Shown here piece after piece: positions 18,001 through 21,000 of a DNA stretch of 64,000 nucleotides (the stretch's first letter is position 1; each line of letters starts with the position of its first letter). The position numbers are program-made. The DNA is from Sphyrna mokarran (lineage: Eukaryota). The stretch covers positions 49,600,001 to 49,664,000 of the forward strand of contig JAGIQG010000012.1 of assembly GCA_024679065.1 (NCBI GenBank), given 5' to 3'.

Positions 18001-21000
18001 CCAATGCATCTATTATCTGTGCTACCACTTCTTATAAGACCCTTGGATGATGTCCATTCAAACCTGGAAACTTGTTGGCCTTTAATTCTAATTGATTTCC
18101 TCGCATCTTTTCCCTGGTAATGCTGATTATTTACGTTTATCACTCCCTATCACCTTCTGATTTTTAAATATCTTTGGGAAATTTTCTAAGTCTTCTAAGA
18201 CAGACTCAAAATGCCTGTTTAATGCCGTTCCTTGTTTTCCATTGTCAATTTCTGGCGTTCACTCTCTGAAAAACGAACACTATAGTTATTTTCCTATTCA
18301 AGTATTAGTATCGCTTCTCAGCCTTTTGGCTAAGATCAAGTGTGGTATCGACGTGTTGTGCTTGGTTGAAGTCATTAGGTTACATTTCAGCTTCATTTGA
18401 AGCAATTTTTAAAAGCAGCATCTTGGTCTTTTCGTTAAGATGTAAATGAGATCAAGCCTTGGAGGAAGTCCAATGCCTACTCCAATCAGCTTGGATTATG
18501 TCGATCAAGCCCAAAACAGGAGGTGATAGCCCTTCTTGTTAGCTTGGATCGGGAATGAGTCAACTTGTTGAGACTGTGAATTGGACTTGTTTTGATTAAA
18601 TTGGAATATAAAAAAGGTACCAGTATGAACTGTTTTCTATTAGTATCTAGTTTTCGCTCATACTCTGCTTTCTGCCTCTTCATCTTTTTAGTGATGCTTT
18701 GCTACTTAGTTTATCCAATCCTCTGACCTATCGCTAATCTTTATAGTGTTCTTTACAATTTAATATCATTCTTGATTTTCCTTATTTAACCATAGATGAT
18801 ACACTTTTTTTTTTACTGGGATAAATCTTTGCTAAGAGTTATTAAATATTTTCTCATACTGCATCCCTACTGTGCTATCTTTTAATCTAGTTTCCCAGTT
18901 CACCTTGACTAGCACTGCCTTTGTATTTACCTTTATTTAGCAGACCCACGTGTCTTGCTTTCAGACTGAATATAGAGTTCTATCATGTTGTCATCACTGC
19001 CACTTAGATACTCCTTTACCGTGAGTTTAATATTTAATCCTATCTCGCTGCGTATTGTGAGGTCTAGGAAGGCCTACTCCCTGATTGGCGTGGTATGTAC
19101 TATTTTAAGAAATTGTCCTGAAAACACTCTGAACTAATTTTCCAAACTACCTTTGCCAATCTAATTCTCCCTATCTGTATGTAGATTAAAGTCCTCCATG
19201 GTTTTGTGGGTTTTTTTTATATGCCTCCATTTATTAATTCCAGTATGCTGTATCCTCCAATGTAACTACTGTTAGGGTACTTGTATACTATTCCCATTAG
19301 TGACCTCTTACCTTTAACATTTCTTATTTCTACCCTTAGTCACCTTTCAACCATGATCTTTGTAATACTTATCAGGTCATTTATATTTATCTCTCTCTGT
19401 GCTAACAATTCATTTCTTGTGTTGCATCCATTCAGACAAAGTTCAAGACCCTCTTTTACCATTTTTACAAATTCTGGCCTTATCCACCGATGCACTGTTA
19501 TGTTCTTGCCCTTCTTGTCACTGTCTGGTAATCATTATGCAGATTGCTACCCTGCTCTAATACTTTTTTGCTATATTTCCTACTATTAAATTTAACATCT
19601 CTCTATTGCCCTAGTACATGATTCATCAGAACACTGGTCTCAGTACAGTTCAGGTGTAGACCATCCCAGTGGTACAGGTCCCACTTTGCTCAGTACTGAT
19701 GCCATTGCCCCATGAATCAAAACCCATCTTTCACATACCAATCTTTAAGCCATGTAATCATTTTTCTAATCTTATTTACCCTACGCCAGTTTGTTTGTGG
19801 TTGAGATAATAATCCAGAGATTATTATTCCTGAGACTCTGCTCTATAATTTAACACTGAGTTGCTCATAGTCCCTCAGCAGAATTTCTTTCCTAGTCCTT
19901 CCAATGTTGTTGGTACTTATGTGGACCATCACAGCTGGATCCTCCCATTTCACTGCATGTTCCTGTGCTGCCCAGAGCAGATGTCCTGAAATTTAGTTGC
20001 GGACAGGCCACACAGCCATCTGGTTTCCGCTGTTGGCTACAGAGAACTGTCACTATTGCCCTGACTGTATTATCCCCTACTGCCACTACATTCCTATTTA
20101 CTTGCTACAATTTAATGACTTCTAAATTGCCCTGATTTGATTTATTATGTTCACATGTATTAGTAGACAGTGAAAAGCATTGTTTTCTTGTACATTATAC
20201 AGACAAAGCATACTGGGAAGAAAAGGGAAGCGTGCAGAATGTAATGTTACAGTCATAGCTAGGGTGCAGAGAAAGATCAATTTAATGCAAGGTCCATTCA
20301 AAAGTCTGATGGCAGCAGAAAAGAAGCTGTTCTTGAGTCAGTTAGTACGTGACCTCAAACTTTTATATCTTTTTCCTCAATGGAAGAAGGCAGAAGAGAG
20401 AATATCCAGGGTGCGGGCATCCTTGATTATGCTGGCTGCTTTTCAGAGGCAGTGGAAGTGTAGATAGTGTCAATGAATGAGAGGCTGCTTTGAGTGACTG
20501 CCTGGTCTTAATTCATGACCCTCATCTATCATGCAGTCCATACTCTCATCCAAGCAAACTGAAAGAACCTCCAACTCCAACCTGTTGGACAATTGCAAGG
20601 ACTAAGTCTCTTGCACTGCTGCCCTCTGGGTCCCATTACCTGCCTCGCTCACAGTCACACCTTCTTGTCTCTGACCACCAACCAAATCAGAAGACTCTAG
20701 TCTAAGGGGTATCATCACCTCCTGGTGCAAAGTAACTCAAAGCTTCTACATCCCTGATGTATTGCATTGTCTGAAACTGTGCCTCCAGTTCAATGACTGA
20801 GTTGAAGGTCCTTAAACTACAGACATCTACTACAAGTGTGCTTGTCCTGGATCACACTGGCATCCATATATACCCATAATCTGCAGTTGCAACACATTGC
20901 TTGTCCTGTCAGCCTTAATGCCTTTAATTATTTAATCGTTCACTTCCCCTTTTTTTTCCACTTAGTGTCTACCCTCGCCATCACTTGCTGCACTTACTTA

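What the first reader, a model, noticed from the sequence alone, without database searches (positions are those of the whole stretch)
18300..18624. Candidate U2-snRNA-headed SINE (SINEU-like) in a probable shark genome
Seen: the element begins exactly at U2 nt 1 and matches 38/40, then switches to ~265 nt of non-U2 sequence. That body contains a second degenerate U2 head (18418-18441, 19/24 to U2 nt 4-27) and ends in A6. It is bounded by an imperfect 10-bp duplication (7/10) inside an older CR1. Known: snRNA-headed SINEs (SINEU) were described from crocodilians, and Keno (Tx1 clade) and Utopia non-LTR elements insert in U2 genes close to this junction position. Inference: this is an independent U2-derived SINE family, possibly born from or mobilised by a U2-targeting LINE. 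I cannot confirm that it is absent from Repbase/Dfam.
Basis: partly seen in the sequence, partly recalled or inferred. Interest (0 to 1): 0.8.

Follow-up and report, generated by a model that had tools for sequence, protein, structure and literature searches.

The report
U2-headed retroposon in shark intron
A 328-base mobile-element copy in an intron of a shark DUSP10 gene starts with the first 40 bases of U2 spliceosomal RNA, and its body is related to a second nearby copy built from other spliceosomal-RNA fragments, which suggests that sharks carry retroposons of the snRNA-headed "SINEU" kind so far described only in crocodilians.

Summary
Window 18310-18349 is U2 snRNA nt 1-40 (38 of 40; Rfam 39.5 bits for the head alone, 49.3 for the whole hit) and the rest is not U2.

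The boundaries change. An exact 10-bp direct repeat (TATTAGTATC, 18303-18312 and 18638-18647) brackets a 325-328-bp insert, so the A6 run is internal, not the tail.

I found a second, diverged relative 8 kb upstream (about 10298-10600, same strand) with unrelated flanks. It shares a core of about 100 nt with the first copy (70 of 90 aligned bases). That core includes the degenerate inner U2-like head and the junction just before it. The second copy also carries a U4 5' stem-loop and a U1 stem-loop-I-like hairpin.

The body therefore belongs to a repeated, snRNA-mosaic retroposon, built like crocodilian SINEU-1. The outer U2-head/body junction is seen only once. No shark genome, Repbase or Dfam could be searched, so I cannot separate a family-level head from a one-off template-switch chimera. 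"Inside an older CR1" was not verified.

The host is a carcharhiniform-like shark: DUSP10 exon 1 is 93% identical to Mustelus asterias.

Verdict: probably a new member of the SINEU kind. Moderate interest.

The parts
18303..18312 (+). 5' copy of the target-site duplication TATTAGTATC. Its last 3 bases overlap U2 nt 1-3.
   Evidence: Exact 10-mer direct repeat. 21 of 2000 shuffles reach length 10.
18310..18349 (+). Outer head of copy A: U2 snRNA nt 1-40, 38 of 40. Stem-loop I is intact. The branch-point-binding hexamer carries one change.
   Evidence: Rfam RF00004 alignment from model position 1. Head alone scores 39.5 bits, E 1.7e-07.
18350..18393 (+). Linker of uncertain origin between the outer head and the shared core.
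   Evidence: nhmmer aligns 18370-18400 to copy B's U4-like stem-loop with posterior 0.6-0.9. A Smith-Waterman test is not significant (16 of 200 shuffles). No Rfam match.
18394..18416 (+). Block shared with copy B (CATT..GCAATTTTT.AAAAGC). It resembles the U4 Sm-site region.
   Evidence: Part of the A-B core alignment. In B this block lies inside the Rfam U4 hit. The gapped motif occurs 2 times in the window against 0.04 expected.
18417..18456 (+). Inner, degenerate U2-like head (core 18418-18441) with an insertion of about 11 nt before CAAG.
   Evidence: 18 of 24 to the copy's own head, 20 of 1000 shuffles. Homologous by position to B 10440-10464.
18450..18502 (+). Body unit 1 of an internal tandem duplication of about 53 nt.
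   Evidence: u1-u2 32 of 51, u1-B 35 of 53. blastn and nhmmer sub-hits.
18503..18555 (+). Body unit 2 of the internal duplication.
   Evidence: u2-B 36 of 52. nhmmer with B as query hits 18503-18606, E 0.0051.
18556..18637 (+). 3' region of copy A. It includes the internal A6 (18610-18615) and ends in CTGTTTTC just before the 3' TSD.
   Evidence: Bounded by the TSD. Similarity to B's 3' region is collinear (TGAATTGGA, TTGGAAT, AACTGTT) but not significant on its own (53 of 200 shuffles).
18638..18647 (+). 3' copy of the target-site duplication. With the next base it forms TAGTATCT (18641-18648).
   Evidence: TAGTATCT occurs 3 times in the window, 1.62 expected.
10324..10364 (+). Copy B: U1 stem-loop-I-like hairpin (11-bp stem, 10-nt loop).
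   Evidence: Rfam U1 sub-threshold hit 10328-10440, 15.3 bits, E 0.073 in a 286-nt search. Fold -13.6 kcal/mol, 4 of 200 shuffles fold as well.
10366..10432 (+). Copy B: U4-derived piece from model position 1, with the 5' stem-loop/K-turn at 10390-10411 and an Sm-region-like block at 10411-10432.
   Evidence: Rfam U4 hit 10366-10489, 18.4 bits (gathering 46), E 0.033 in 286 nt and 7.5 window-wide. The 22-mer consensus matches once in the window with 2 mismatches; 0 of 100 shuffles give any match.
10433..10464 (+). Copy B: U2-like head, homologous to A's inner head.
   Evidence: 20 of 25 to A's true U2 head, 0 of 1000 shuffles, the best tile in the window. Rfam U2 13.1 bits, E 1.9.
10465..10510 (+). 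Copy B: body segment shared with A's units 1 and 2.
   Evidence: A-B core 70 of 90 identical plus 17 gap columns. Body A against the rest of the window scores 67, against 100 shuffles with mean 43.3 and maximum 56. nhmmer E 3.5e-07.
10511..10600 (+). Copy B: probable 3' region, with an uncertain end and no TSD. The whole of 10298-10600 lies between a perfect 12-nt inverted repeat.
   Evidence: Collinear short matches to A. No direct repeat of 7 or more. Inverted repeat 10286-10297 / 10601-10612.

Best explanation
Copy A (18310/13-18637, + strand) is a dead, non-coding retroposon insertion in the large first intron of a shark DUSP10 gene. It is a member of a repeated family whose sequence is a stack of 5'-complete, 3'-truncated spliceosomal snRNA pieces on a short unrelated 3' body. 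That is the SINEU-1 type of architecture.

Shown:
- U2 head plus body are enclosed by one exact 10-bp TSD, so they integrated as a unit by a LINE-type (target-primed) event.
- The body core recurs in copy B with unrelated flanks.
- That core contains a U2-derived segment preceded by the same upstream block in both copies, so a composite snRNA junction was inherited, not made twice.
- B additionally holds U4- and U1-like pieces.

Inferred:
- snRNA pieces were added one after another at the 5' end. This happened either when the reverse transcriptase reached the end of the element RNA and switched to an abundant snRNA, or by co-transcription from a master copy sitting in a U2 gene at the Keno/Utopia site (nt 38/39).
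- The outer U2 head of A is the youngest layer: 2 of 40 changes, against 5-6 of 24 in the inner head.
- Five internal runs of four or more T make pol III transcription unlikely. Transcription would then depend on an upstream pol II promoter.
- The partner LINE is unknown. A Tx1/Keno-like element is a candidate.
- Neither copy is likely to have any present function.
For: - Head: Rfam U2 from position 1, 38 of 40, 39.5 bits alone.
- Unit insertion: exact 10-bp TSD at 18303/18638.
- Body is repeated: body A against the rest of the window scores 67, against 100 dinucleotide shuffles with mean 43.3, sd 3.7 and maximum 56. 0 of 200 shuffles reach it in the direct A-B test. nhmmer E 3.5e-07. 70 of 90 aligned bases are identical.
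- Not a segmental duplication: left flanks 171 of 200 and right flanks 43 of 200 shuffles reach the observed score.
- snRNA content of B:
  - U4 5' stem-loop 22-mer: one hit, 2 mismatches, 0 of 100 shuffles.
  - U2-like segment: 20 of 25, 0 of 1000 shuffles.
  - U1-like hairpin.
  - Of 8 Rfam matches at E<=10 in 9800-11000, three are U4, U1 and U2, all + strand and collinear inside B.
  - Window-wide, the only spliceosomal matches among 12 are A's U2 and B's U4.
- SINEU-1 parallels, from Kojima 2015, PMC4494074 (Results part 1, sections 16-18 read): recurrent 5' additions of snRNA pieces, partial duplications, a 3' half of unknown origin, TSDs of about 10 bp, internal oligo-T, and Tx1 families carrying the same heads.
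- Junction at U2 nt 40 against the Keno/Utopia site at nt 38/39 (PMC4640811 passages).
- TAGTATCT at the 3' TSD.
- Tx1 elements are reported in chondrichthyans (PMC8455134 passage).
Against: - Only two copies were seen, and they are 78% identical over 90 aligned bases with 17 gap columns.
- Their 3' regions are not significantly alike (53 of 200 shuffles).
- The outer U2-head/body junction is seen once. B's upstream region does not resemble the head (627 of 2000).
- B's U1 and U4 matches are far below Rfam gathering scores (15.3 against 69.5; 18.4 against 46). B has no TSD.
- A has no terminal poly(A), whereas Kojima states that all SINEU groups have one. A6 lies 22 nt inside the TSD.
- No partner LINE or reverse-transcriptase remnant is in the window.
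- No third copy: the candidate at 15919 was rejected.
- The younger-head argument is weak statistically (Fisher p 0.09 or 0.04, depending on the count).
- The TAGTATCT observation is post hoc.
- Genome-wide copy number, Repbase and Dfam were not testable here.
Confidence: 0.55

Rival explanations
1. One-off chimeric retrocopy. A reverse transcriptase copying a transcript of an existing repeat (the family represented by copy B, or an old genomic copy of it carried in a pol II transcript) switched template to U2 snRNA and copied it to its 5' end. The result is a unique U2-body junction that never propagated, like U6/L1 chimeras in mammals.
For: - The outer junction occurs once in the window and B lacks it.
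- The head is much better preserved than the body modules. u1-u2 are only 32 of 51 identical, which fits a fresh snRNA joined to an already old template.
- The snRNA is 5'-complete, 3'-truncated, in sense orientation and inside the TSD. These are the hallmarks listed for such chimeras in Kojima 2015's discussion.
- Kojima reports 26 SINEU-2 copies with independent U1 5' extensions.
Against: - The body itself already carries inherited snRNA junctions shared with B, so the underlying family is snRNA-mosaic either way.
- The junction at nt 40 sits next to the Keno/Utopia site, which a random switch point does not predict.
- There is no terminal poly(A), which an L1-type processed chimera would have.
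Confidence: 0.27
2. An ordinary, strongly diverged full-length U2 pseudogene, as the above-threshold Rfam hit 18310-18492 would be annotated by a pipeline.
For: Rfam aligns model positions 1-192 at 49.3 bits, above the gathering score of 46. The stretch beyond the head adds about 10 bits.
Against: - 18345-18630 alone gives no U2 match at E<=10.
- The first 40 nt are 95% identical, while the rest is unrecognisable. That is not what uniform neutral decay gives.
- The TSD encloses 328 bp, not about 190.
- The post-head sequence is homologous to copy B, which has no full U2.
Confidence: 0.04
3. A U2 gene or pseudogene interrupted at nt 38-40 by a Keno/Utopia-type U2-targeting LINE fragment. On this reading the head is target DNA and not part of the mobile unit.
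For: The head ends two bases from the shared Keno/Utopia insertion site (PMC4640811 passages).
Against: - No U2 nt 39 onward follows the insert. Rfam finds nothing else in 17000-20000, and the right flank against the head is not significant (382 of 2000).
- No reverse-transcriptase or endonuclease ORF is present.
- The 10-bp TSD lies outside the head, so the head is inside the mobile unit.
- No snRNA promoter context was examined.
Confidence: 0.04
4. The A-B similarity comes from an old local duplication or from chance. On this reading A is just a truncated U2 retrocopy next to unrelated sequence.
For: The two copies lie 8 kb apart, on the same strand and in the same intron. Only about 100 nt are clearly alike. 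Their left flanks show a faint similarity (65 of 2000 shuffles).
Against: - 500-nt flanks are unrelated.
- The A-B score exceeds every one of 100 and of 200 shuffles.
- The TSD brackets head plus body.
Confidence: 0.05

Closest known systems
SINEU-1 of crocodilians (Kojima 2015, PMC4494074)
   Same: - Short non-coding retroposon whose 5' part is a stack of U1/U2-derived pieces added one after another.
- Internal partial duplications.
- 3' half of unknown origin.
- TSDs of about 10 bp.
- Internal oligo-T that argues against pol III.
   Different: - The host is a shark; the paper found SINEU only in crocodilians.
- A U4-derived piece is present in copy B; SINEU heads are U1 or U2.
- There is no terminal poly(A) in copy A.
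- Sequence relatedness to SINEU-1 is untested: no Repbase here, and the figure alignments and supplements were not seen.
- Only two copies are known here, against about 7,700.
SINEU-3 (internally deleted U2) and monomeric Alu-type derivatives
   Same: An snRNA-derived 5' end starting at nt 1. The U2 5' fragment is of similar length (32 bp in SINEU-3, 40 here). B's U4 piece may be internally deleted in the same way; this is a hand alignment and a lead only.
   Different: SINEU-3 continues with 83 bp of U2. Copy A's continuation is not U2.
snRNA/LINE template-switch chimeras (U6/L1 and rarer U1 or U2 chimeras in mammals) and tailless snRNA retropseudogenes
   Same: A 5'-complete, 3'-truncated snRNA in sense orientation, fused to another retro-copied RNA inside one TSD.
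   Different: - Those are single events on L1, Alu or mRNA with poly(A) and L1-type targets.
- Here the partner sequence is itself an snRNA mosaic present in at least two copies.
- The end is not poly(A).
- The target (CAAG/TATTAG) is not L1-like by my reading.
Keno (Tx1 clade) and Utopia, U2-gene-targeting non-LTR retrotransposons
   Same: The break in U2 lies at nt 40, next to their shared nt 38/39 site. A U2-target-like motif is present in the target DNA. Crocodilian Tx1 relatives of Keno carry U1/U2 heads and are the proposed SINEU mobilisers.
   Different: No LINE coding sequence is present. No U2 3' part follows the insert. The nick geometry implied by the TSD does not match the Keno/Utopia register.

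Membership tests
SINEU (snRNA-headed SINEs, Kojima 2015) | 5' region derived from U1 or U2 snRNA | tested here: met
   U2 nt 1-40, 38 of 40, Rfam from model position 1.
SINEU (snRNA-headed SINEs, Kojima 2015) | Short (<500 bp) non-coding retroposon flanked by TSDs | tested here: met
   325-328 bp between exact 10-bp repeats. No Pfam domain in the overlapping ORFs.
SINEU (snRNA-headed SINEs, Kojima 2015) | A multi-copy family sharing the same head-body structure (a retrotransposition unit, not a sum of chimeras) | tested here: inconclusive
   Two related copies share an inner snRNA junction. The outer junction is seen once. The genome was not searchable.
SINEU (snRNA-headed SINEs, Kojima 2015) | 3' poly(A) tail (stated for all SINEU groups) | tested here: inconclusive
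   A6 at 18610-18615 lies 22 nt inside the 3' TSD. The terminus is CTGTTTTC. If the TSD call were wrong, A6 could be a decayed tail.
SINEU (snRNA-headed SINEs, Kojima 2015) | Internal oligo-T, no pol III promoter | tested here: met
   Five runs of four or more T inside copy A, read (18324-27, 18406-10, 18429-32, 18590-93, 18633-36). No tRNA in the window. No tRNA, 5S or 7SL Rfam match in it.
SINEU (snRNA-headed SINEs, Kojima 2015) | Sequence similarity to SINEU-1/2/3 consensus, or a shared Tx1 partner and target preference | not testable with these tools
   No Repbase, Dfam or eukaryotic genome collection was available. Only hints exist: TAGTATCT at the target and short inverted repeats around both copies.
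U2 spliceosomal RNA gene (RF00004) | Full-length U2 with Sm site and 3' stem-loops | tested here: not met
   The 3' part alone gives no U2 match at E<=10. 39.5 of 49.3 bits come from nt 1-43.
U2 spliceosomal RNA gene (RF00004) | Intact branch-point-binding sequence | tested here: not met
   One change against the Rfam consensus within the GUAGUA position (alignment).
One-off snRNA template-switch chimera | 5'-complete sense snRNA fused to another retro-copied RNA within one TSD | tested here: met
One-off snRNA template-switch chimera | Junction unique in the genome, non-propagating | not testable with these tools
   Needs a search of the shark genome. Within the window the junction is single.
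Keno/Utopia insertion in a U2 gene | U2 nt 39 onward immediately downstream of the insert, and LINE coding sequence inside it | tested here: not met
   No second U2 match in 17000-20000. The right flank is not U2-like. No reverse-transcriptase or endonuclease domain.

The most novel reading that the evidence does not exclude
Sharks carry their own, independently born class of snRNA-mosaic retroposons. These grow by repeatedly capturing the 5' parts of U1, U2 and, newly, U4 snRNAs. They are born from, or mobilised by, a U2-site-specific Keno/Tx1-like LINE with relaxed targeting. The outer U2(1-40) head of copy A marks a young, possibly still numerous subfamily. That would make SINEU-type elements a recurrent outcome of Tx1-snRNA interplay across jawed vertebrates, not a crocodilian oddity. 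It would also offer a second system in which to ask how promoter-less SINEs get transcribed.
Probability: 0.3. Interest if true: 0.65.

Novelty: new member of a known kind. Interest (0 to 1): 0.45.

Why it matters
In the literature I could search, snRNA-headed SINEs are reported from crocodilians only. Kojima 2015 found none outside them. The whole-word search for "SINEU" returned 23 papers, and I saw none on sharks among the 21 listed by title and abstract start. "SINEU" + "SINE" + "shark" returned 0 papers.

A shark family would show three things:
- Capture of snRNA 5' ends by LINE machinery arises repeatedly.
- The donor set extends to U4.
- There is a second lineage in which to test the two open questions of the class: what transcribes such elements, and which LINE moves them.

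A practical point also follows. The copy passes the Rfam U2 gathering score, so such elements can inflate U2 gene or pseudogene counts in shark annotations.

Tried and rejected
1. Other copies through spurious ORFs.
   - The 46-aa frame across head and body (18309-18446) found nothing in the word-indexed protein set.
   - In the 1.84-billion representative set it found only an unrelated tandem-repeat protein and one weaker hit that I did not examine.
   - This says nothing about copy number.
2. A third copy at 15919-15985, suggested by a shared gapped motif. Rejected: 59 of 500 and 196 of 500 shuffles reach the score.
3. Segmental duplication of A and B. Rejected: the flanks are unrelated.
4. 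The target site being an old U2-like sequence. Not supported: 1115, 382 and 608 of 2000 shuffles.
5. Copy B carrying the same outer U2 head. Not supported: 627 of 2000.
6. Homology of A 18350-18400 with B's U4/U1 part. nhmmer suggests it, but the shuffle test does not (16 of 200).
7. Homology of the 3' ends. Collinear words only, 53 of 200.
8. CR1 host. No reverse-transcriptase or endonuclease domain, and no paralogous flank in the window.
   - I scanned individual ORFs instead, 33 of the 53 listed.
9. Folding of the modules gave only modest z-scores.
10. tRNA head: none in the window.
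Full report
**What is at the coordinates.** Rfam finds one above-threshold RNA match in the whole window: U2 (RF00004) at 18310-18492, 49.3 bits against a gathering score of 46. The alignment starts at model position 1 and is nearly perfect through position 40. There are two transitions, one at a CpG and one in the branch-point-binding hexamer. After position 40 it is poor.

When only 18296-18352 is searched, the head alone gives 39.5 bits. 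When only 18345-18630 is searched, there is no U2 match at E<=10.

The "second degenerate head" at 18418-18441 matches the copy's own head at 18 of 24 positions. By itself this is marginal: 20 of 1000 shuffles reach it, and other window tiles score as well.

**Boundaries.** An exact 10-bp direct repeat, TATTAGTATC, lies at 18303-18312 and 18638-18647. 21 of 2000 shuffles give a repeat that long. Its last three bases coincide with U2 nt 1-3, so the insert is 18310 or 18313 to 18637.

The A6 run (18610-18615) is therefore 22 nt inside the element, whose last bases are CTGTTTTC. The perfect TSD and the 95% head both indicate a fairly young insertion in which head and body arrived together.

**A second copy.** A self-search of the window with the element found one related place, about 10298-10600 on the same strand.
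- The non-U2 body of A (18350-18620) scores 67 against the rest of the window. 100 dinucleotide shuffles give mean 43.3, sd 3.7 and maximum 56.
- In the direct A-B comparison, 0 of 200 shuffles reach the score. nhmmer gives E 3.5e-07.
- The core, A 18394-18496 against B 10411-10504, has 70 identical of 90 aligned bases plus 17 gap columns.
- 500-nt flanks on either side are unrelated (171 of 200 and 43 of 200 shuffles reach the observed scores). This is not a segmental duplication.
- A carries an internal tandem duplication of about 53 nt (18450-18502 and 18503-18555). The two units are as far from each other (32 of 51) as from B's single unit (35 of 53 and 36 of 52).
- The 3' regions share collinear words but are not significantly alike (53 of 200).
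- No third copy was found. A candidate at 15919 failed the shuffle test, and a window-wide permissive Rfam scan shows no further snRNA-like match.

**What the shared core and copy B are made of.**
- B 10440-10464 is the best match to A's true U2 head anywhere in the window outside A: 20 of 25, 0 of 1000 shuffles. It aligns with A's inner head.
- In both copies the same block precedes it (CATT..GCAATTTTT.AAAAGC). The junction between that block and the U2-like piece is therefore inherited.
- In B this block is the end of a sub-threshold Rfam U4 match that starts at U4 position 1 (10366-10489, 18.4 bits; E 0.033 in a 286-nt search and 7.5 window-wide).
- The U4 5' stem-loop (K-turn) part is convincing. 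The 22-nt Rfam consensus matches the window once, at 10390-10411, with two mismatches. None of 100 shuffled windows has any match at up to three mismatches.
- Upstream lies a U1 stem-loop-I-like hairpin: Rfam U1 15.3 bits, E 0.073; 11-bp stem and 10-nt loop; 4 of 200 shuffles fold as well.
- Of the 8 Rfam matches at E<=10 in 9800-11000, three are U4, U1 and U2. All lie in B, on the + strand and collinear.
- From recall of vertebrate snRNA sequences, used only as a lead, B reads as U1(5' part) - U4(5' stem-loop plus Sm region, centre missing) - U2(5' part) - body. A reads as U2(1-40) - linker - U4-like remnant - U2-like - duplicated body.
- Whether A's linker (18350-18393) is U4- or U1-derived is unresolved. 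nhmmer aligns it to B's stem-loop, but the shuffle test is negative (16 of 200).

**Host and context.** The window holds a dual-specificity phosphatase gene on the + strand. A rhodanese exon lies in ORF 1407-2729, and DSPc exons lie in ORFs 31497-31934 and 38591-38905.

I searched only the first coding exon (1650-2588). Its best match is DUSP10 of Mustelus asterias at 93%, then Scyliorhinus canicula at 76% and other chondrichthyans. The contig is therefore shark, probably carcharhiniform, and not human.

Both copies lie in sense orientation in the long intron between the rhodanese and phosphatase exons. No reverse-transcriptase or endonuclease domain was found in 59 ORFs across the window or in the 33 of 53 flanking ORFs scanned. 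"Inside an older CR1" stays unverified. CR1 is the dominant shark LINE according to a passage of the whale shark genome paper, so it is plausible but untested.

**Mechanism.**
- Shown: integration of head plus body as one unit with a 10-bp TSD. This is the signature of target-primed reverse transcription by a LINE enzyme.
- Shown: the body belongs to a repeat with inherited snRNA-to-snRNA junctions.
- Inferred: each snRNA piece is 5'-complete and 3'-truncated. That is what template switching at the 5' end of the RNA being copied produces. It is also the mechanism Kojima proposes for the recurrent U1/U2 additions in SINEU-1 and SINEU-2 (PMC4494074, Results part 1 and sections 16-18 read).
- The outer head has 2 of 40 changes against 5-6 of 24 in the inner one (Fisher p 0.09 or 0.04). 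This fits a later addition but is weak.
- A second route is suggested by position. Keno and Utopia both insert in U2 genes so that downstream U2 starts at nt 39 (PMC4640811 passages), and A's head ends at nt 40. A non-autonomous element sitting at that site in a U2 gene would be transcribed from the U2 promoter with exactly such a head.
- The target DNA at A's 3' TSD contains TAGTATCT. This is one of three occurrences in the window (1.62 expected). It lies within the U2-target-like motifs that the same paper reports at off-target Utopia junctions.
- Five internal runs of four or more T argue against pol III, as for SINEU.
- Tx1 elements exist in chondrichthyans (PMC8455134 passage).

**Comparison and membership.** The thing works like SINEU-1. 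Membership in the SINEU class is met for the snRNA head, size, TSD and oligo-T. It is inconclusive for multi-copy status and poly(A). It is untestable for sequence relatedness and partner LINE.
- It is not a U2 gene or a plain U2 pseudogene.
- It is not a LINE-interrupted U2 gene.
- It cannot be told apart from a one-off chimera at the level of the outer junction.

**Literature.**
- "SINEU" as a whole word occurs in 23 papers of the held library, of which 21 were listed. Going by titles and abstract starts only, I saw none on cartilaginous fish.
- "SINEU" + "SINE" + "shark" gives 0 papers.
- A search for snRNA + SINEs + shark + transposable elements gave 15 papers. I checked two of them by passages (PMC7245038 and PMC5381603). 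In those passages snRNA-headed SINEs are mentioned only through Kojima 2015, and PMC5381603 places them in crocodilians.
- PMC5786205 and PMC5753468 (passages) list SINEU as a class.
- These searches do not cover Repbase Reports or Dfam.

**What stayed unchecked.**
- No eukaryotic genome, Repbase or Dfam collection was available.
- The prokaryotic genome, phage, plasmid and E. coli collections were not queried, as they are irrelevant.
- Figures and supplementary files of Kojima 2015 (Fig. 1B head alignments, S1-S6) and of the Utopia paper were not seen. They bear on head lengths and exact junction positions.

**Verdict.** The best reading (confidence about 0.55) is a copy of a shark snRNA-mosaic, SINEU-like retroposon family whose outer U2 head is a later 5' addition. 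The main rival (about 0.27) is a one-off U2 chimera built on that family's transcript.

Noticed in passing
window 1650-2588, 31497-31934, 38591-38905 (+): Exons of a DUSP10 (MKP-5) orthologue. Exon 1 is 93% identical to Mustelus asterias DUSP10 and 76% to Scyliorhinus canicula. Exon 1 carries GC-rich Gly/Ala/Ser repeat stretches (trinucleotide repeats at 1784-2169).
   Followed up: partly
window 10286-10297 / 10601-10612 and 18272-18284 / 18742-18754: Copy B is enclosed by a perfect 12-nt inverted repeat whose inner ends are TTAA. Copy A lies between a 13-nt, 92% inverted repeat. The left flanks of A and B are faintly alike (65 of 2000 shuffles), sharing a GAACAC motif. This may mean that both sit in the same kind of small TIR element or palindromic target, as SINEU does in Mariner-N4. 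It may also be chance.
   Followed up: partly
window 51270-52600: A GC- and C-rich block with CCCCA, CCACCC and GGA repeats and several sub-threshold miRNA-family matches on both strands (mir-3015 34.5 bits against gathering 59; MIR6462). It looks like low-complexity or palindromic sequence, or a CpG-island-like region downstream of DUSP10.
   Followed up: no
window 14739-14809 (+): A sub-threshold SNORD47-like box C/D match (26.6 bits, gathering 50, E 0.95) inside the same DUSP10 intron.
   Followed up: no
window 10547-10556: A T10 run inside or at the end of copy B's 3' region. On the minus strand it would be an A10 tail of a neighbouring reverse-oriented retroposon, which would move B's 3' boundary inward.
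   Followed up: no
window 18310-18492: This chimeric element passes the Rfam U2 gathering score (49.3 against 46) although only 40 nt are U2. Automatic pipelines would count such copies as U2 genes or pseudogenes.
   Followed up: yes
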